Source of the DNA: a virus | Taxonomy: Duplodnaviria > Heunggongvirae > Uroviricota > Caudoviricetes | Length of the DNA stretch: 25,598 nt | Strand: one strand, 5' to 3' | IMG/VR virus record: IMGVR_UViG_2606217107_000001 | Part shown: positions 1-25,598 of the stretch, piece after piece | Layout of the letters: every line of letters starts with the position of its first letter | Numbering within the stretch: position 1 is the stretch's first letter | Notes under the pieces: model-generated | The model's database searches: none | The model's input: the letters and a program-made list of their open reading frames with translations, nothing else | Told to the model about the DNA's origin: nothing | Translations under genes and position numbers: made by a program

Positions 1-33
1 GGATCAGTTGACCGATCCAGTGGCTGTGTAAGA

Positions 34-67
34 ATCCGGAAACGCTCACTTGTTTCCGGATTTTTTT
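34..67 (+). promoter_or_regulatory. Perfect 10-bp stem-loop plus T-tract immediately upstream of the transposase ATG (terminator-like; likely blocks read-in transcription or translation)
   Basis: atccggaaac (34..43), loop gctcactt, gtttccggat (52..61), then tttttt (62..67) directly before ATG at 68. Repeated identically in copy 2 at 24248..24281. Confidence 0.5.
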
Positions 68-1396
68 ATGCACATTGGACAGGCTCTTGATCTGGTATCC
101 CGTTACGATTCTCTGCGTAACCCACTGACTTCTCTGGGGGATTACCTCGACCCCGAACTCATCTCTCGTTGCCTTGCCGAATCAGGTACTGTAACGCTAC
201 GCAAGCGCCGTCTTCCCCTCGAAATGATGGTCTGGTGTATTGTTGGCATGGCGCTTGAGCGTAAAGAACCTCTTCACCAGATTGTGAATCGCCTGGACAT
301 CATGCTGCCGGGCAATCGCCCCTTCGTTGCCCCCAGTGCCGTTATTCAGGCCCGCCAGCGCCTGGGAAGTGAGGCTGTCCGCCGCGTGTTCACGAAAACA
401 GCGCAGCTCTGGCATAACGCCACGCCGCATCCGCACTGGTGCGGCCTGACCCTGCTGGCCATCGATGGTGTGTTCTGGCGCACACCGGATACACCAGAGA
501 ACGATGCAGCCTTCCCCCGCCAGACACATGCCGGGAACCCGGCGCTCTACCCGCAGGTCAAAATGGTCTGCCAGATGGAACTGACCAGCCATCTGCTGAC
601 GGCTGCAGCCTTCGGCACGATGAAGAACAGCGAAAATGAGCTTGCTGAGCAACTTATAGAACAAACCGGCGATAACACTCTGACGTTAATGGACAAAGGT
701 TATTACTCACTGGGACTGTTAAATGCCTGGAGCCTGGCGGGAGAACACCGCCACTGGATGATACCTCTCAGAAAGGGAGCGCAATATGAAGAGATCAGAA
801 AACTGGGTAAAGGCGATCATCTGGTGAAGCTGAAAACCAGCCCGCAGGCACGAAAAAAGTGGCCGGGACTGGGAAATGAAGTGACTGCCCGCCTGCTGAC
901 CGTGACGCGCAAAGGAAAAGTCTGCCATCTGCTGACGTCGATGACGGACGCCATGCGCTTCCCCGGAGGAGAAATGGGGGATCTGTACAGTCATCGCTGG
1001 GAAATCGAACTGGGATACAGGGAGATAAAACAGACGATGCAACGGAGCAGGCTGACGCTGAGAAGTAAAAAGCCGGAGCTTGTGGAGCAAGAGCTGTGGG
1101 GTGTCTTACTGGCTTATAATCTGGTGAGATATCAGATGATTAAAATGGCGGAACATCTGAAAGGTTACTGGCCGAATCAACTGAGTTTCTCAGAATCATG
1201 CGGAATGGTGATGAGAATGCTGATGACATTGCAGGGCGCTTCACCGGGACGTATACCGGAGCTGATGCGCGATCTTGCAAGTATGGGACAACTTGTGAAA
1301 TTACCGACAAGAAGGGAAAGGGCCTTCCCGAGAGTGGTAAAGGAGAGGCCCTGGAAATACCCCACAGCCCCGAAAAAGAGCCAGTCAGTTGCTTAA
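68..1396 (+). CDS. insG: IS4 transposase (DDE family), 442 aa
   Basis: ORF 50..1396; protein from [20 protein letters not shown]... recognised as the E. coli IS4 transposase. Start placed at ATG 68 (MHIGQ), which gives 442 aa; the track start at 50 lies inside the upstream hairpin. Confidence 0.9.
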
Positions 1397-13412: not shown

Positions 13413-15707
13413 ATGAGCACAAAATTCAAAACCGTTATCACCACTGCCGGTGCAGCAAAGCTGGCAGCGGCAACCGCACCGGGAGGGCGGAAGGTCAACA
13501 TTACCACGATGGCCGTCGGGGATGGCGGTGGTAAATTGCCTGTCCCGGATGCCGGACAGACCGGGCTTATCCACGAAGTCTGGCGACATGCGCTGAACAA
13601 AATCAGTCAGGACAAACGAAACAGTAATTATATTATCGCAGAACTGGTTATTCCGCCGGAGGTGGGCGGTTTCTGGATGCGTGAGCTTGGCCTGTACGAT
13701 GATGCGGGAACATTAATTGCCGTGGCGAACATGGCCGAAAGTTATAAGCCAGCTCTTGCCGAAGGCTCAGGGCGTTCGCAGACCTGTCGCATGGTCATCA
13801 TCGTCAGCAGTGTGGCCTCAGTGGCGCTGACCATTGACACCACAACGGTGATGGCAACGCAGGATTACGTTGATGACAAAATTGCAGAGCATGAACAGTC
13901 ACGACGTCACCCGGACGCCTCGCTGACCGCAAAAGGTTTTACTCAGTTAAGCAATGCGACCAACAGCACGTCTGAAACACTGGCCGCAACGCCGAAAGCG
14001 GTAAAGGCCGCGTATGATCTTGCTAACGGGAAATACACTGCGCAGGATGCCACCACAGCGCGAAAAGGCCTTGTCCAGCTCAGTAGCGCCACCAACAGCA
14101 CGTCTGAAACGCTCGCCGCAACACCAAAAGCGGTAAAGGCAGCATATGACCTTGCTAACGGGAAATACACTGCACAGGACGCCACCACAGCGCGAAAAGG
14201 TCTTGTCCAGCTCAGTAGCGCCACCAACAGCGATTCTGAAACGCTTGCGGCAACGCCAAAGGCGGTTAAGACAGCGTATGACCTTGCTAACGGGAAATAC
14301 ACTGCACAGGACGCCACCACGGCGCGGAAAGGTCTTGTTCAGCTCAGTAGCGCCACCAACAGTGATTCTGAAACGCTGGCCGCAACATCAAAAGCGGTGA
14401 AGTCTGCCTATGACAATGCTGAAAAACGTCTTCAGAAAGATCAGAACGGTGCGGATATTCCGGGAAAGGATACCTTCACGAAAAATATCGGTGCCTGTCG
14501 TGCTTATAGCGGCGCTTTGAGCACTGAAGCCGGAAACTGGACAACCGCTCAGTTTATTGAATGGCTGGATTCCCGTGGTGCATTTAATCATCCGTACTGG
14601 ATGTGCAAAGGCTCCTGGTCATATGCAAATAACAAAATCATTACGGATACCGGATGTGGTGATATCCACCTGGCTGGTTGTGTCGTCGAGGTCATGGGAA
14701 CTAAATCTGCAATCACTATCCGAGTGACCACGCCGACAACATCAAGTGGTGGCGGTACAACCAGCGCGCAATTCACTTACATTAATCATGGGGACGGCTA
14801 CTCCCCCGGCTGGCGTCGTGACTGGAATCGTCAGGGCGACTCAATGACCGGAACGATTAATCAGGATGGCGGAAGCCAGAATGCCTATATGTCTACGGCC
14901 TTATGTTCAGGCACCAGAGGCGGCAAAAAATATCTCAGAAAGTTTCGTGGTGGAGAAGGAGACACTATCTGGCATGAAACAGTACAGGGCGGGGTAATTC
15001 GCTGGGCGACAGGAAACTATGACGCTCAGGAAGAATTATCACTCAGCTCCGCTTATGGTCTTCGTTCTAGAGGTGAAATTACATCACTCAGTGCTAATGG
15101 TCTGCGCATTGCTTATGGCAATTATGGATTCTTTATCAGGAATGATGGTGGCAGCACATATTTAATGCTGACGGCCTCTGGTGATAAATTTGGGACATGG
15201 AACGGTTTAAGGCCGCTGACTATCAATAACGCTAATGGCGGAGTGTCAATGGGGCATGGCCTGAGTGTTACTGGTGATATTGCCTCAAGTACCAAAGTAC
15301 GTGCCGGTAGCGGGAAAAAGTTCACGGTCAGCAGCAGCAATACATCCACGAAGGAAGCCGCATTCAATTTGTGGGGAAACTCAAGTCGTCCGGTGGTGGC
15401 TGAATTAGGTGATGATGCAGGCTGGCATTTTTACAGTCAGAGAAATACAGATAACAGCATCACTTTTGCTGTTAACGGTCAGGTATCACCATCTAACTAC
15501 AGTAATTTTGATTCACGTTATGTACGCGATATCCGGCTTGGGACTCGAGTTGTCCAGACCATGCAGAAAGGGGTGATGTATGAGAAAGCAGGGCACGTAA
15601 TTACCGGGCTTGGTATTGTCGGTGAAGTCGATGGTGATGACCCCGCAGTATTCAGACCAATACAAAAATACATCAATGGAACATGGTATAACGTCGCACA
15701 GGTGTAA
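13413..15707 (+). CDS. H: Tail fibre protein (P2 gpH-like) with expanded internal repeats and a divergent distal domain, 764 aa
   Basis: ORF 13413..15707; P2 H-like N-terminus (MSTKFKTVITTAGAAKLAAAT...). Contains ~3.6 tandem copies of a 44-aa unit. Longer than the ~669 aa I recall for P2 H; distal part is lower in GC. Confidence 0.9.
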   Translation: MSTKFKTVITTAGAAKLAAATAPGGRKVNITTMAVGDGGGKLPVPDAGQTGLIHEVWRHALNKISQDKRNSNYIIAELVIPPEVGGFWMRELGLYDDAGTLIAVANMAESYKPALAEGSGRSQTCRMVIIVSSVASVALTIDTTTVMATQDYVDDKIAEHEQSRRHPDASLTAKGFTQLSNATNSTSETLAATPKAVKAAYDLANGKYTAQDATTARKGLVQLSSATNSTSETLAATPKAVKAAYDLANGKYTAQDATTARKGLVQLSSATNSDSETLAATPKAVKTAYDLANGKYTAQDATTARKGLVQLSSATNSDSETLAATSKAVKSAYDNAEKRLQKDQNGADIPGKDTFTKNIGACRAYSGALSTEAGNWTTAQFIEWLDSRGAFNHPYWMCKGSWSYANNKIITDTGCGDIHLAGCVVEVMGTKSAITIRVTTPTTSSGGGTTSAQFTYINHGDGYSPGWRRDWNRQGDSMTGTINQDGGSQNAYMSTALCSGTRGGKKYLRKFRGGEGDTIWHETVQGGVIRWATGNYDAQEELSLSSAYGLRSRGEITSLSANGLRIAYGNYGFFIRNDGGSTYLMLTASGDKFGTWNGLRPLTINNANGGVSMGHGLSVTGDIASSTKVRAGSGKKFTVSSSNTSTKEAAFNLWGNSSRPVVAELGDDAGWHFYSQRNTDNSITFAVNGQVSPSNYSNFDSRYVRDIRLGTRVVQTMQKGVMYEKAGHVITGLGIVGEVDGDDPAVFRPIQKYINGTWYNVAQV
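13944..14417 (+). repeat. Tandem 132-bp in-frame coding repeat (~3.6 copies) inside tail fibre gene H
   Basis: gctaacggg recurs at 14022, 14154 and 14286 (period 132 bp); protein unit QLS(S/N)ATNS(T/D)SETLAATPKAVK(A/T)AYDLANGKYTAQDATTARKGLV repeats at residues ~178, 222, 266 and 310. Confidence 0.9.
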
Positions 15708-15710
15708 TTT

Positions 15711-16238
15711 ATGCAGCATTTAAAAAATATTACTGCGGGTAATCCAAAAACTGTTGCCCAATATCAACTGACAAAAAATTTTGATGTTATCTGGTTATGG
15801 TCCGAAGAGGGAAAAAACTGGTATGAGGAAGTAAGTAATTTTCAGGAAGACACGATAAAGATTGTTTACGACGAGAATAATATAATTGTCGGCATCACCA
15901 GAGATGCTTCAACGCTCAACCCTGAAGGTTATAGCGTTGTCGAGGTTCCTGATATTACCGCCAACCGACGTGCTGATGACTCAGGTAAATGGATGTTTAA
16001 GGATGGTGCCGTGATTAAGCGGATTTATACGGCAGACGAACAGCAACAACAGGCAGAATCACAAAAGGTCGCGTTACTTTCCGAAGCGGAAAGCGTTATT
16101 CAGCCACTGGAGCGCGCTGTCAGGCTGAACATGGCAACAGATGAGGAGCGTAGCCGACTGGAAGCATGGGAACGCTACAGTGTTCTGGTCAGCCGTGTGA
16201 ATCCTGCAAATCCTGAATGGCCGGAAATGCCGCAATAA
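15711..16238 (+). CDS. G: Tail fibre assembly chaperone (P2 gpG-like), 175 aa
   Basis: ORF 15711..16238; directly downstream of H; C-terminal part resembles the conserved tail fibre assembly domain. Confidence 0.85.
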
Positions 16239-16389
16239 GTTGTATGAGCTGACATATCTATAGCACAGAGTAAAGCCTAATCTGACAGTCTGCTCTGTGC
16301 AAGGAGCGGACATTACCTAACACATTGGTAACCTTCACAGATTTACGCGTTCTACATAGTTAGCATTGTATCTGATGAGTTATCATGTT

Positions 16390-17169
16390 TTAAAATATCC
16401 AACTGATAAATCCACCTGAATACTTTTCACTAATTTTGATTGCATAAAGATCATGAAGAGTTATAAATAAATCATTATCTTCTTTGAAAATTAACTCCTC
16501 ATATTCTGCCATTATCAAATTATGTTGTGTTGTTAGTTTAGATATGTTATCTATTTCACTGGCAAGCATGGATTTGTTTACATTGGTGTGTGGATCCATG
16601 GCAATATATTTCCGCATCAATGGAATTAGTTGATTAGGGTCTATATTTTTTGCATTTTCCTTTGCTTTTTTTTGTCTTTCTGAATAGATGGAGTTAATTG
16701 TGTTAGTGTGTTTTTTCGCCAGTCTCTTAAACTCTGGATATGAACCAGTAACTAATGCAAGCTCTTCGTACTTAAGGAACAAATCGATATTGCATTTTTT
16801 TACCGTTATTTCAAGATCTTCAACTCTTTTTTTTAACTCTTCATTTGTTTTAATAAGAGACATCGGGAGAACTTCATAATGTTGTCCTAATTCTGAATCA
16901 GGGCTCATTGCCATATGTACTATTTCATTATACATGAGCTGATAAGAAGCAGATAACTCTCCATACTTTAGAAATAGTTCATTGTGTGAAGATGAACAAG
17001 AACTTTGTAATTTCATCATTGGTCTAAAGTAATCCTTTATAAACTCCTCCTGAAGATCTTGGTCTTTTTTGTAGCTCTCTAGGATTCCAGCAAAAAGAAA
17101 TGATCCTAAAGATATAGAGATTATGGATATTAGCAATTGACTAAGGAATGATTGTGTTTCATTACTCAT
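16390..17169 (-). CDS. Hypothetical membrane-anchored protein encoded by an AT-rich insert at the Z/fun position; candidate exclusion or defence gene, 259 aa
   Basis: ORF 16390..17169 minus; AGGA ribosome-binding site 6 nt before the ATG; N-terminal hydrophobic helix (FLSQLLISIISISLGSFLFAGIL); internally repeated LFLKY(G/E)EL motif; region is far lower in GC than its flanks; opposite strand to the late operons. Function not recognised. Confidence 0.7.
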   Translation of the reverse strand: MSNETQSFLSQLLISIISISLGSFLFAGILESYKKDQDLQEEFIKDYFRPMMKLQSSCSSSHNELFLKYGELSASYQLMYNEIVHMAMSPDSELGQHYEVLPMSLIKTNEELKKRVEDLEITVKKCNIDLFLKYEELALVTGSYPEFKRLAKKHTNTINSIYSERQKKAKENAKNIDPNQLIPLMRKYIAMDPHTNVNKSMLASEIDNISKLTTQHNLIMAEYEELIFKEDNDLFITLHDLYAIKISEKYSGGFISWIF

Positions 17170-17446
17170 AAAACATCCTTAAAAAATAACACGAAAAGTG
17201 ACTCCTGACAGGGAAGAAACGACAGGTCGGAAACAAACTTAACTGATGAGTTAGCCGTAGTCCAGAACCTTGTTTGAACACTTAGTGTGACTGTTTGCAT
17301 CTCAGGAATTTGTGCCAATAACATTTGAATCCTTATAATTTATTTAAATCAAATTTAGTTACTCGCTCAAAGCAGGCTGTCAGATTTGATAGCATTTGGG
17401 CTATGTAAATTGTCAGGCGGAAAATGAGTGAGTACAAATCAAGACT

Positions 17447-17474
17447 GGCGGGCGAATTGCCCGCCTTTTCTTTA
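17447..17474 (+). terminator. Intrinsic terminator (plus strand) between the AT-rich insert and FI
   Basis: ggcgggc (17447..17453), loop gaatt, gcccgcc (17459..17465), followed by ttttctttat; T-run only on the plus strand. Confidence 0.6.
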
Positions 17475-17569
17475 TCTGTTGTTTCATCCACTGACCAGCT
17501 AGGTCAAATAGCGTCTCATGCACTGCCCAACAGACAATAGTTGCACCCATTAACCACGGAGTTAAACGG
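17475..17569 (+). promoter_or_regulatory. Region expected to hold the late promoter for the FI-FII-E-T-U-D operon
   Basis: Non-coding stretch between the terminator and the FI start, the position of P2 P_F; motif not confirmed. Confidence 0.35.
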
Positions 17570-18760
17570 ATGAGTGACTATCATCACGGCGTGCAGGTGC
17601 TGGAGATTAACGACGGCACCCGCGTCATTTCCACCGTATCCACTGCCATTGTCGGCATGGTCTGCACGGCCAGCGATGCGGATGCGGAAACCTTCCCCCT
17701 CAATAAACCTGTGCTGATTACCAATGTGCAGAGCGCAATTGCAAAGGCTGGTAAAAAAGGCACGCTGGCGGCATCGTTGCAGGCCATCGCCGACCAGTCA
17801 AAACCGGTCACCGTTGTCGTGCGTGTGGAAGACGGCACCGGCGACGACGAGGAAACGAAACTCGCGCAGACCGTTTCCAATATCATCGGCACCACCGACG
17901 AAAACGGTCAGTACACCGGACTGAAAGCCCTGCTGGCGGCGGAGTCGGTAACCGGTGTTAAACCGCGTATTCTCGGCGTGCCGGGACTGGACACCAAAGA
18001 GGTGGCTGTTGCACTGGCATCAGTCTGTCAGAAGTTGCGCGCTTTCGGGTATATCAGCGCATGGGGCTGTAAAACCATTTCCGAGGTGAAAGCCTACCGT
18101 CAGAATTTCAGCCAGCGTGAGCTGATGGTCATCTGGCCGGATTTCCTCGCATGGGATACGGTCACCAGTACCACCGCCACCGCGTATGCCACCGCCCGTG
18201 CGCTGGGGCTGCGCGCTAAAATCGACCAGGAGCAGGGCTGGCATAAAACGCTGTCCAATGTCGGGGTGAACGGTGTTACCGGCATCAGCGCCTCTGTATT
18301 CTGGGATTTGCAGGAGTCCGGCACCGATGCTGACCTGCTTAACGAGTCAGGCGTCACAACGCTGATTCGCCGCGACGGTTTTCGCTTCTGGGGTAACCGT
18401 ACCTGCTCTGATGACCCGCTGTTCCTCTTTGAAAACTACACCCGCACCGCGCAGGTGCTGGCTGACACGATGGCTGAGGCGCACATGTGGGCGGTGGACA
18501 AGCCCATCACCGCAACGCTGATTCGCGACATCGTTGACGGCATCAATGCCAAATTCCGTGAGCTGAAAACAAACGGCTATATCGTGGATGCGACCTGCTG
18601 GTTCAGCGAAGAATCCAACGATGCGGAAACCCTCAAGGCCGGAAAACTGTATATCGACTACGACTATACCCCGGTGCCTCCTCTTGAAAACCTGACCCTG
18701 CGCCAGCGTATTACCGATAAATACCTGGCAAATCTGGTCACCTCGGTTAACAGCAATTAA
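17570..18760 (+). CDS. FI: Tail sheath protein (P2 gpFI-like), 396 aa
   Basis: ORF 17570..18760; GGAG ribosome-binding site; recognised as P2 FI. Confidence 0.93.
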   Translation: MSDYHHGVQVLEINDGTRVISTVSTAIVGMVCTASDADAETFPLNKPVLITNVQSAIAKAGKKGTLAASLQAIADQSKPVTVVVRVEDGTGDDEETKLAQTVSNIIGTTDENGQYTGLKALLAAESVTGVKPRILGVPGLDTKEVAVALASVCQKLRAFGYISAWGCKTISEVKAYRQNFSQRELMVIWPDFLAWDTVTSTTATAYATARALGLRAKIDQEQGWHKTLSNVGVNGVTGISASVFWDLQESGTDADLLNESGVTTLIRRDGFRFWGNRTCSDDPLFLFENYTRTAQVLADTMAEAHMWAVDKPITATLIRDIVDGINAKFRELKTNGYIVDATCWFSEESNDAETLKAGKLYIDYDYTPVPPLENLTLRQRITDKYLANLVTSVNSN

Positions 18761-24197: not shown

Positions 24198-24215
24198 TAA
24201 TGCCGATCAGTTAAG
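24198..24215. repeat. IS4 left terminal inverted repeat (copy 2)
   Basis: taatgccgatcagttaag; imperfect inverse of 1392..1409. Confidence 0.8.
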
Positions 24216-24281
24216 GATCAGTTGACCGATCCAGTGGCTGTGTAAGAATCCGGAAACGCTCACTTGTTTCCGGATTTTTTT

Positions 24282-25598
24282 ATGCACATTGGACAGGCTC
24301 TTGATCTGGTATCCCGTTACGATTCTCTGCGTAACCCACTGACTTCTCTGGGGGATTACCTCGACCCCGAACTCATCTCTCGTTGCCTTGCCGAATCAGG
24401 TACTGTAACGCTACGCAAGCGCCGTCTTCCCCTCGAAATGATGGTCTGGTGTATTGTTGGCATGGCGCTTGAGCGTAAAGAACCTCTTCACCAGATTGTG
24501 AATCGCCTGGACATCATGCTGCCGGGCAATCGCCCCTTCGTTGCCCCCAGTGCCGTTATTCAGGCCCGCCAGCGCCTGGGAAGTGAGGCTGTCCGCCGCG
24601 TGTTCACGAAAACAGCGCAGCTCTGGCATAACGCCACGCCGCATCCGCACTGGTGCGGCCTGACCCTGCTGGCCATCGATGGTGTGTTCTGGCGCACACC
24701 GGATACACCAGAGAACGATGCAGCCTTCCCCCGCCAGACACATGCCGGGAACCCGGCGCTCTACCCGCAGGTCAAAATGGTCTGCCAGATGGAACTGACC
24801 AGCCATCTGCTGACGGCTGCAGCCTTCGGCACGATGAAGAACAGCGAAAATGAGCTTGCTGAGCAACTTATAGAACAAACCGGCGATAACACTCTGACGT
24901 TAATGGACAAAGGTTATTACTCACTGGGACTGTTAAATGCCTGGAGCCTGGCGGGAGAACACCGCCACTGGATGATACCTCTCAGAAAGGGAGCGCAATA
25001 TGAAGAGATCAGAAAACTGGGTAAAGGCGATCATCTGGTGAAGCTGAAAACCAGCCCGCAGGCACGAAAAAAGTGGCCGGGACTGGGAAATGAAGTGACT
25101 GCCCGCCTGCTGACCGTGACGCGCAAAGGAAAAGTCTGCCATCTGCTGACGTCGATGACGGACGCCATGCGCTTCCCCGGAGGAGAAATGGGGGATCTGT
25201 ACAGTCATCGCTGGGAAATCGAACTGGGATACAGGGAGATAAAACAGACGATGCAACGGAGCAGGCTGACGCTGAGAAGTAAAAAGCCGGAGCTTGTGGA
25301 GCAAGAGCTGTGGGGTGTCTTACTGGCTTATAATCTGGTGAGATATCAGATGATTAAAATGGCGGAACATCTGAAAGGTTACTGGCCGAATCAACTGAGT
25401 TTCTCAGAATCATGCGGAATGGTGATGAGAATGCTGATGACATTGCAGGGCGCTTCACCGGGACGTATACCGGAGCTGATGCGCGATCTTGCAAGTATGG
25501 GACAACTTGTGAAATTACCGACAAGAAGGGAAAGGGCCTTCCCGAGAGTGGTAAAGGAGAGGCCCTGGAAATACCCCACAGCCCCGAAAAAGAGCCAG
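24282..25598 (+). CDS. insG: IS4 transposase, second copy (partial; C-terminal ~4 codons and stop outside the window)
   Basis: Same reading frame and sequence as 68..1396, shifted by 24214 bp; runs off the window end. Confidence 0.88.

What the first reader, a model, noticed from the sequence alone, without database searches (positions are those of the whole stretch)
16239..17569. AT-rich insert at the P2 Z/fun position encodes an unrecognised 259-aa membrane-anchored protein on the opposite strand
Between tail fibre assembly gene G and tail sheath gene FI lies a ~1.3-kb segment whose base composition is visibly far more AT-rich than the rest of the prophage. Its only sizeable ORF (16390..17169, minus strand) has an AGGA ribosome-binding site, an N-terminal transmembrane helix, a helical body with an internally duplicated LFLKY(G/E)EL motif, and no catalytic motif I can recognise. 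In P2 this exact position holds the non-essential Z/fun gene (phage T5 exclusion), and in P2-like prophages it is a known hotspot for variable anti-phage cargo. The composition, orientation and position all point to a horizontally acquired gene expressed from the prophage, plausibly an abortive-infection or superinfection-exclusion factor. I cannot say whether it is a homologue of P2 Fun or something undescribed.
Basis: partly seen in the sequence, partly recalled or inferred. Interest (0 to 1): 0.8.

Follow-up and report, generated by a model that had tools for sequence, protein, structure and literature searches.

The report
Unknown membrane protein in P2 moron slot
A P2-like prophage of E. 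coli carries, at a slot known to hold anti-phage genes, a foreign one-gene cassette for an undescribed membrane-anchored four-helix-bundle protein; it is a good but untested candidate for a factor that keeps other phages out.

Summary
Between tail genes G and FI lies a ~1.05-kb cargo of 32% GC (flanks 56%). Its only sizeable ORF (16390..17169, minus strand, 259 aa) has an AGGA ribosome-binding site and one N-terminal membrane helix, and is otherwise all helical.

The gene is real. dN/dS against homologues is 0.09-0.28, and it is 99% identical to a hypothetical protein of Yersinia phage L-413C. It is not a homologue of P2 Fun(Z). It matches no Pfam, NCBIfam or PADLOC model, and only a PHROG of unknown function.

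The family is small (91 representatives among 1.84 billion proteins). A confident AlphaFold model (pLDDT 94) shows a long four-helix bundle with no specific solved relative. Across 61 relatives the only near-invariant residues are C58 and C126, lost together at least four separate times. With long charged N-terminal extensions and one caspase fusion, this points to a periplasmic, disulfide-stapled bundle.

Relatives lie beside type I R-M, Mrr and AbiE genes and in a lambdoid prophage. A distant Pseudomonas branch is an ordinary syntenic chromosomal gene.

Best reading is an envelope-level anti-phage factor, but function and expression are untested.

The parts
16288..17377 (.). Mobile cassette: the stretch shared with copies outside P2 (Enterobacter ludwigii chromosome, E. 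bugandensis lambdoid prophage, partly Pectobacterium carotovorum). The AT-rich core is 16310-17361.
   Evidence: Alignments A6 and A7; junctions with the P2 backbone in A2 and A5; GC 32.1%.
16390..17169 (-). Gene for the 259-aa bitopic membrane protein (stop codon included).
   Evidence: 99% identical to L-413C AAP04457.1. dN/dS 0.09-0.28. Homologues keep the full length.
17176..17179 (-). Shine-Dalgarno AGGA, 6 nt before the ATG. It lies within a TAT(A/G/T)TT-TTAAGGAG block conserved in 8 homologue loci.
   Evidence: alignment A3.
17080..17136 (-). Codons for the single transmembrane helix (residues 12-30). This is the most conserved segment of the family.
   Evidence: Hydropathy; conservation 0.49 against 0.34 overall.
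16996..16998 (-). Codon of Cys58, one half of the covarying cysteine pair.
   Evidence: Alignment A4: C58 and C126 are the only columns at least 90% conserved. 55 CC, 5 double losses, 1 single. The losses are independent.
16792..16794 (-). Codon of Cys126, the other half of the pair.
16279..16303 (.). Left inverted-repeat arm of the Z locus. The overlapping hairpin GTCTGCT-N10-AGCGGAC (16288-16311) is shared by the P2 backbone and by the 3' end of the cassette in Enterobacter.
   Evidence: I1; A5; A6; motif counts in L019.
17362..17386 (.). Right inverted-repeat arm. Its inner 16 nt (reverse complement GCCTGCTTTGAGCGAG) match the 5'-end motif GTCCGCTGTGAGCGA of cassettes in E. ludwigii.
   Evidence: I1; A2; A7.
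17170..17361 (-). 5' leader/regulatory region of about 190 nt that travels with the gene. It is conserved in four different genomic contexts. The sense promoter is not identified.
   Evidence: A3 and A7; promoter scan.
17447..17474 (+). G+C-rich hairpin plus T-run of the conserved P2 backbone, upstream of the FI late promoter region. It is not part of the cargo.
   Evidence: conserved in P2, P2-EC67 and P2SIAC10 (A2).

Best explanation
The segment is an intact, horizontally mobile one-gene cassette sitting in the Z/fun moron slot of a P2-like prophage.

What it encodes:
- A bitopic inner-membrane protein of an undescribed family.
- An 11-residue N-terminus, one strongly conserved signal-anchor helix (residues 12-30) and a juxtamembrane stalk with a Pro kink (R49-P50).
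- A roughly 75-Angstrom up-down four-helix bundle whose conserved hydrophobic C-terminal tail returns to the membrane.
- Two cysteines, C58 on helix 1 and C126 on helix 2, at the same height of the bundle. They behave as an obligate pair.

Inferred, not shown:
- The pair is a disulfide and the bundle faces the periplasm (N-in, C-out).
- The protein is made in the lysogen and acts at the envelope against superinfecting phages.
- It most likely interferes with tail-tip or ejection-protein penetration or DNA transfer across the inner membrane (superinfection exclusion). The variable membrane-distal half of the bundle would be the recognition surface. The conserved transmembrane helix, proximal bundle and tail would be the working part.

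Shown here:
- The gene is real and under purifying selection.
- The architecture and fold class.
- The cysteine covariation.
- Mobility of the cassette, and its defence-rich and prophage neighbourhoods.
For: Gene and selection:
- Full-length conservation in 46 clusters at 90% identity and in 91 representatives at 50% identity.
- dN/dS 0.09-0.28.

Architecture:
- A single hydrophobic helix.
- AlphaFold pLDDT 94.1 and pTM 0.85 with 61 sequences, all helical.

Topology:
- C58 and C126 are the only near-invariant columns at 17% mean identity.
- 55 sequences have both cysteines, 5 have lost both, 1 has lost one. Most of the 61 proteins have exactly two cysteines.
- The five double losses are not each other's relatives.
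- 11 of 61 homologues carry N-terminal extensions of 30 aa or more, several of them K/R-rich.
- P0121 and P0155 carry a 260-aa signal-less caspase domain before the membrane helix.

Where conservation lies:
- TM helix, stalk, proximal bundle and C-tail score 0.42-0.49; the distal bundle scores 0.25-0.29.

Context:
- Vibrio: homologue directly after hsdMSR and before an HNH gene.
- E. ludwigii: after an Mrr gene.
- L017: next to DUF6088-AbiEii and ParDE.
- E. bugandensis: in the moron region of a lambdoid prophage.
- Caspase fusion: directly after hsdR-S-AAA_13-hsdM.
Against: - No phenotype, expression or localisation data exist.
- The sigma-70 scan found no sense promoter. At 31% GC the gene could be silenced.
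- For the window protein itself the positive-inside rule does not favour N-in: 0 K/R before the helix against 3 after it.
- The cysteine proximity was inferred from helix register, not measured on coordinates.
- The family matches no PADLOC model and no PHROG annotated as exclusion.
- Distant Pseudomonas members sit at one syntenic chromosomal site, between a pga/DUF945 cluster and an efflux operon. This suggests an envelope role unrelated to phages for at least part of the family.
- Two Pectobacterium contexts are Rhs/T6SS islands rather than anti-phage islands.
- The cassette is rare: 13 of 5426 complete E. coli genomes, one phage among 50,697 records.
Confidence: 0.4

Rival explanations
1. 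Abortive-infection type factor. The bundle senses a phage cue in the periplasm or cytoplasm. The conserved transmembrane helix and hydrophobic C-tail then oligomerise and depolarise the inner membrane, killing or arresting the infected cell.
For: - The transmembrane helix is the most conserved part of the protein, including small residues G22, S23, A27 and G28. This is more than a passive anchor needs.
- Fun(Z), at the same slot, is classed as an Abi system (PMC8594841).
- In P0121 and P0155 the module replaces the usual C-terminal domain of a family of caspase-like proteins. That is the behaviour of a sensor or effector module in cell-death-type immunity.
- The P0121 caspase matches PADLOC's caspase model at 9.3e-10.
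- Neighbours include AbiEii and toxin-antitoxin genes.
Against: - Only one membrane helix, and no partner gene is conserved next to it.
- If the bundle is periplasmic it cannot see cytoplasmic phage products.
- No similarity to RexB, PifA or other known membrane Abi proteins in PADLOC.
Confidence: 0.22
2. An envelope protein with no anti-phage role, which the prophage merely carries as a fitness moron. Candidate roles are periplasmic stress or housekeeping, or protection against envelope-targeting toxins of competitors (T6SS/Rhs effectors, bacteriocins, tailocins).
For: - Distant members in three Pseudomonas genomes occupy the same chromosomal site among envelope genes (pgaABCD, DUF945, an AaeAB-like efflux pump).
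- Pectobacterium copies lie after an Rhs-Imm26 and orphan-immunity stretch, and next to Hcp-VgrG-Rhs. L017 has Rhs fragments nearby.
- P2-like phages also carry non-defence morons at their variable loci (PMC9122126).
Against: - The Enterobacterales and Vibrio branch to which the window protein belongs is mobile. It is found next to R-M, Mrr and AbiE genes and in two unrelated prophage types.
- The Z slot has yielded validated anti-phage genes.
- No similarity to known immunity-protein families in Pfam.
Confidence: 0.2
3. A silent or decaying passenger. The cassette is AT-rich foreign DNA that is not expressed in the lysogen and has no current function there.
For: - No sense-strand promoter in the consensus scan.
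- 31% GC.
- The prophage in the window is bracketed by two identical IS4 copies and lacks its early region within the window.
- One of the 13 E. coli copies lies under two annotated CDSs, with 1330 of 1331 nt aligned (H33; not examined further).
Against: - The ORF is intact in the window, in L-413C and in GB089, with 2-3 amino-acid differences.
- dN/dS is well below 1 at every distance.
- The roughly 190-nt upstream region and the ribosome-binding block are conserved across contexts.
Confidence: 0.08

Closest known systems
P2 Fun(Z) (AAD03288.1), the cargo at this slot in phage P2
   Same: - Same position between G and FI and same minus-strand orientation.
- AT-rich, non-essential lysogenic-conversion cargo bounded by the same conserved flanks.
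   Different: - Fun(Z) is 528 aa.
- No sequence relationship: BLASTP E 0.41 and hhalign probability 0.9%.
- Fun(Z) has no Pfam match either.
Prophage superinfection-exclusion inner-membrane proteins, e.g. P22 SieA (PMC10883804)
   Same: - A single prophage-borne gene for an inner-membrane protein.
- Carried as a moron.
- Proposed to act at the step of DNA passage through the envelope.
   Different: - No sequence similarity to any PHROG annotated as exclusion.
- The predicted architecture (one helix plus a large four-helix bundle with a cysteine pair) was found here by prediction only.
- A block of injection has not been tested.
Periplasmic four-helix-bundle ligand-binding domains of chemoreceptors and sensor kinases (Tsr, Vc1313, QseE, Adeh_2942)
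   Different: - 7-10% identity and no Pfam 4HB_MCP or TarH match.
- De novo designed bundles score higher, so the match is to a shape and not to a family.
- No second membrane helix and no cytoplasmic signalling domain, except the N-terminal caspase in P0121 and P0155.
SNIPE, a membrane-bound nuclease that cuts phage DNA during injection (PMC13190303)
   Same: A constitutively membrane-located single-protein defence that exploits the site of genome entry.
   Different: SNIPE has a nuclease domain. The protein here has no catalytic domain or conserved catalytic residues.

Membership tests
P2 Fun(Z) | Sequence homology to Fun(Z) | tested here: not met
   BLASTP best E 0.41 over 14 residues; profile-sequence hhalign probability 0.9%.
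P2 Fun(Z) | Located between G and FI, transcribed against the late genes | tested here: met
   shared flanks in A2 and A5.
P2 Fun(Z) | Cloned gene blocks T5 and other phages | not testable with these tools
   Needs plating assays.
Known anti-phage defence systems (PADLOC-DB v2.0.0) | Match to a defence-protein HMM | tested here: not met
   No family at E up to 1 for the window protein. Among 61 relatives only scattered single hits, apart from the caspase domain of P0121.
Superinfection-exclusion membrane proteins (SieA/Imm/gp15 type) | Inner-membrane location | tested here: inconclusive
   One strong predicted transmembrane helix that does not look cleavable. This is prediction only.
Superinfection-exclusion membrane proteins (SieA/Imm/gp15 type) | Sequence relationship to a described exclusion protein family | tested here: not met
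   Only phrog_7729 (unknown function) matches. No PHROG annotated as exclusion matches.
Superinfection-exclusion membrane proteins (SieA/Imm/gp15 type) | Expressed from the prophage and blocks DNA entry without killing the cell | not testable with these tools
   Needs transcript mapping and injection assays.
4HB_MCP / TarH periplasmic sensor domains | Profile match and placement between two membrane helices of a receptor | tested here: not met
Hemerythrin-like domain | Profile match above cut-off and conserved His/Glu/Asp metal ligands | tested here: not met
   TIGR02481 scores 13 bits against a cut-off of 51.75. H62 and other candidate ligands are not conserved in the wider family; only the two cysteines are.
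Two-gene Abi systems with a membrane effector (RexAB type) | Conserved partner gene in an operon | tested here: not met
   Neighbours differ in every context examined.

The most novel reading that the evidence does not exclude
The family is a periplasm-facing sensor module of bacterial immunity. A disulfide-stapled four-helix bundle on the outer face of the inner membrane detects the arrival of a phage tail tip or ejection proteins. In the stand-alone form (this gene) it blocks entry or perturbs the membrane directly. In the caspase-fused form it passes the signal across the membrane to a cytoplasmic protease. That would be a transmembrane-receptor style of anti-phage sensing. The gene also travels as a cassette bounded by a junction motif (GTCCGCT-N10-AGCGGAC ... 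GTCCGCTNTGAGCGA). This motif is shared by the P2 Z locus and by cassette arrays outside phages, which hints at a dedicated exchange mechanism for Z-locus cargo.
Probability: 0.12. Interest if true: 0.85.

Novelty: new member of a known kind. Interest (0 to 1): 0.45.

Why it matters
- The Z/fun slot of P2-like phages has already yielded validated defence genes, and most of its cargo is still unnamed.
- This cargo is a compact, single-gene, experimentally tractable candidate from a family with no annotation anywhere.
- It has a confident structural model and a specific, testable prediction: a periplasmic bundle with an essential C58-C126 pair.
- If it excludes phages at the envelope, it would add a new protein family to the small set of entry-blocking factors. 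Its variable distal surface would give a handle on which phage component is recognised.
- The shared junction motif may explain how Z-locus cargoes are swapped.

Tried and rejected
Searches that gave nothing specific:
- Pfam, NCBIfam and PADLOC gave nothing for the protein. PHROGs gave only phrog_7729 (unknown function), whose profile covers residues 79-259, so it reflects truncated gene calls.
- A profile search of PDB sequences gave nothing.
- Rfam found nothing real in 16100-17700.

Hypotheses rejected:
- Hemerythrin or a C58/H62 metal site: H62 is not conserved in the wider family.
- A cleavable signal peptide: the hydrophobic core is 19 residues long, there is no small-x-small cleavage site, and the helix is internal in the extended homologues.
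- A second gene in the cargo: the small upstream ORFs are not conserved (A3 and A7).
- An ERIC-like high-copy repeat for the flanks: genomes with a match have a median of one place.
- Homology between the E. ludwigii Mrr gene and the Mrr-domain cargo of P2-EC67.

Inconclusive or unavailable:
- A second word-index search with the wide alignment added only three Pseudomonas members.
- The L-413C genome paper and the paper 'prophages encode an arsenal of defense systems' could not be read.
- No paper mentions the protein accessions.

Full report
**1. The observation**

The window is the late region of a P2-like prophage of E. coli: portal, terminase, capsid, lysis, baseplate, tail fibre H and G, FI, FII, E, T, U, D and ogr.

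Between gpG (15711..16238) and FI (17570..18760) there is one sizeable ORF, 16390..17169 on the minus strand, 259 aa. Every other ORF there is 63 aa or shorter.

The cargo 16310-17361 is 32.1% GC, against 55.6% for the late genes. It is the lowest 1052-nt window in the 25.6 kb.

An AGGA lies 6 nt before the ATG. Residues 12-30 form the only hydrophobic segment. The LFLKY(G/E)EL motif is present twice, but as evidence of duplication it is marginal: 6 of 1000 shuffles score as well. The description is therefore correct.

**2. Boundaries and anatomy**

The cargo is bounded by imperfect inverted repeats at 16279-16303 and 17362-17386: 25 nt, 84% complementary, 1058 nt apart.

Alignment with P2, P2-EC67 and a third P2 isolate shows where the backbone is conserved. 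On the left it runs up to about 16314. On the right it resumes at about 17362. The right side includes a G+C hairpin with a T-run (17447-17474) upstream of the FI promoter region. GenBank annotates left and right inverted repeats at these flanks in P2-EC67.

P2's own cargo, Fun(Z), is 528 aa and also on the minus strand.

**3. The gene is real and mobile**

- The same insert, 98% identical, is in Yersinia phage L-413C, where it is annotated as a hypothetical protein. It is also in 13 of 5426 complete E. coli genomes. The flanks alone match about 1000 genomes.
- The exact protein is on record in E. coli, always as hypothetical.
- dN/dS against homologues falls from 0.28 to 0.09 with increasing distance.
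- About 190 nt upstream of the start are conserved in four different contexts. A TAT(A/G/T)TT-TTAAGGAG block before the start codon is kept in all eight loci aligned.
- No sense-strand promoter passed the consensus scan, so expression remains unproven.

**4. What the protein is**

There is no Pfam, NCBIfam or PADLOC match. The only PHROG match is one of unknown function, whose profile starts at Met79.

It is unrelated to Fun(Z) and to two other Z-locus cargoes.

The family is small. There are 46 clusters at 90% identity, all from Gammaproteobacteria. An exhaustive HMM search of 1.84 billion representatives found 91 members, nearly all 245-300 aa.

With 61 sequences AlphaFold gives pLDDT 94.1 and pTM 0.85. 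The model has a helix at 8-88 containing the membrane segment, then helices 100-141, 144-190 and 196-251. This is a long up-down four-helix bundle whose hydrophobic tail returns towards the membrane.

**5. Topology argument**

In the 61-sequence alignment (17% mean identity) the only columns conserved at 90% or more are C58 and C126.

- 55 sequences have both cysteines, five have neither, and one has a single cysteine. Most of the proteins contain exactly two cysteines.
- The five double losses are unrelated to one another: four have nearest neighbours that keep both cysteines, and the fifth is marginal. The pair was therefore lost together at least four times.
- By helix register both residues lie about 15 residues from the membrane-proximal end of the bundle.
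- Eleven homologues have hydrophilic N-terminal extensions of 30 residues or more, several of them K/R-rich.
- P0121 and P0155 have a 260-aa caspase domain with no signal peptide before the membrane helix.

Together these favour N-in, C-out with a periplasmic, disulfide-linked bundle. Against this, the window protein has no K/R before the helix and three after it. I put the periplasmic orientation at about 0.65.

Conservation is concentrated in the membrane helix, the stalk, the proximal bundle and the C-tail. The distal half is variable.

**6. Context of homologues**

| Organism or locus | Neighbourhood |
|---|---|
| Vibrio sagamiensis | directly after hsdM-S-R, before DUF4440 and an HNH gene |
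| Enterobacter ludwigii | after an Mrr-type endonuclease |
| L017 | next to a Pol-beta NTase, DUF6088-AbiEii, ParDE and Rhs fragments |
| E. bugandensis | moron region of a lambdoid (Rac-like) prophage |
| Teredinibacter | beside IS110, with a HEPN gene about 6 kb away |
| Pectobacterium | an integrase island next to T6SS/Rhs, and a stretch after Rhs-Imm26 |
| Burkholderia | a conjugative plasmid |
| Caspase fusion P0121 | directly after hsdR-S-AAA_13-hsdM |

The relatives of that caspase have a different, soluble C-terminal domain, so the membrane-bundle module was swapped in.

Against a purely defensive reading, three Pseudomonas members share one chromosomal site between pgaABCD-DUF945 and an efflux operon.

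**7. Literature**

- The fun locus was noted as a second defence-enriched locus of P2-like phages, holding three newly validated systems (PMC9519451).
- The better known P2 hotspot is the old/tin locus (PMC9122126).
- Fun/Z protects against many phage groups by an unknown mechanism (PMC8594841).
- The Z slot is one of three moron regions of P2-likes (PMC6823313).
- P22 SieA (PMC10883804) and SNIPE (PMC13190303) are the nearest functional comparators for inner-membrane factors acting at genome entry.
- No paper mentions this protein.

**8. Mechanism and verdict**

I commit to a prophage-borne envelope-level anti-phage factor, most likely an entry block, at 0.4 overall. Component estimates:

| Claim | Probability |
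|---|---|
| Real functional gene | 0.95 |
| Bitopic four-helix-bundle protein | 0.9 |
| Periplasmic orientation | 0.65 |
| Anti-phage role | about 0.55 |
| Exclusion rather than Abi | about 0.6, given an anti-phage role |

The rivals are an Abi-type membrane killer, a non-phage envelope or immunity role, and a silent passenger.

This is a new, unannotated family placed in a known kind of locus. It is interesting as a clean experimental candidate rather than as a surprise.

**9. Side finding**

The cassette ends seen outside P2 fall about 16-25 nt inside the P2 inverted repeats, symmetrically on both sides.

In E. ludwigii the same end motifs recur far more often than chance allows: 4 matches against 0.14 expected, and 3 against 0.01 expected. 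They delimit an adjacent Mrr cassette as well.

This fits the site-specific exchange of Z-locus cargo proposed for P2-like coliphages (Nilsson et al., Mol Biol Evol 2004; cited from memory, paper not read here).

Noticed in passing
window 1-1384 and 24215-25598: The two ends of the window are 100% identical direct copies of an IS4-family element (Nterm_IS4 + DDE_Tnp_1 transposase). They bracket cos and Q...ogr of the prophage. The early region (int, C, cox, B, A) and the old/tin hotspot are not in the window. A related genome has IS4 only on the ogr side and an intact early region.
   Followed up: partly
window 16288-16311 and 17362-17377; L019 6124-6147, 6595-6651, 7789-7803, 8859-8882: There is a shared junction motif. 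A hairpin GTCyGCT-N10-AGCGGAC sits at the 3' end of the cassette and GTCCGCTNTGAGCGA at the 5' end. Both overlap the inner parts of the P2 Z-locus inverted repeats. In Enterobacter ludwigii the motifs recur (4 against 0.14 and 3 against 0.01 expected) and delimit a neighbouring Mrr cassette, which looks like a small cassette array outside any P2 prophage.
   Followed up: partly
window 17312-17339 (+) to 17474: A sigma-70-like promoter (GTCCCA-type hexamer GTGCCA, 16-nt spacer, TATAAT) sits in the cargo on the strand opposite the gene and faces outward. In the E. ludwigii copy it reads TTGCCA-17-TATAAT. It would transcribe through the right inverted repeat to the backbone hairpin terminator, giving an RNA of about 130 nt. 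That stretch folds far better than shuffles (-44.8 kcal/mol, z -4.6).
   Followed up: partly
window 13931-14420: Tail fibre gene H contains three tandem 132-nt (44-aa) repeats, 82-86% identical to the first copy.
   Followed up: no
P0121, P0155; locus L033 8001-9539: A roughly 500-aa family of caspase-like proteins (Pseudomonas, Aeromonas, Vibrio, Psychromonas) normally has a soluble C-terminal domain. In two metagenomic members this domain is replaced by the membrane helix plus bundle of the present family. That gene lies directly after a type I R-M operon with an embedded AAA_13 gene.
   Followed up: partly
L010 9127-9513; L019 9041-9397: A DUF4440 gene lies immediately downstream of the homologue in both Vibrio sagamiensis and Enterobacter ludwigii, on different strands. 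This may be coincidence or a travelling neighbour.
   Followed up: no
L002 210-1121 (P2-EC67 ORF1): Another Z-locus cargo, annotated as a putative lysogenic conversion protein, carries an Mrr_cat restriction-endonuclease domain (E 4.3e-5, above the Pfam cut-off).
   Followed up: no
phrog_7729; P0067: The PHROG profile and some database entries for this family start at Met79 (181-182 aa). They omit the membrane helix and stalk, which are the most conserved parts of the protein. These are probably truncated gene calls.
   Followed up: partly
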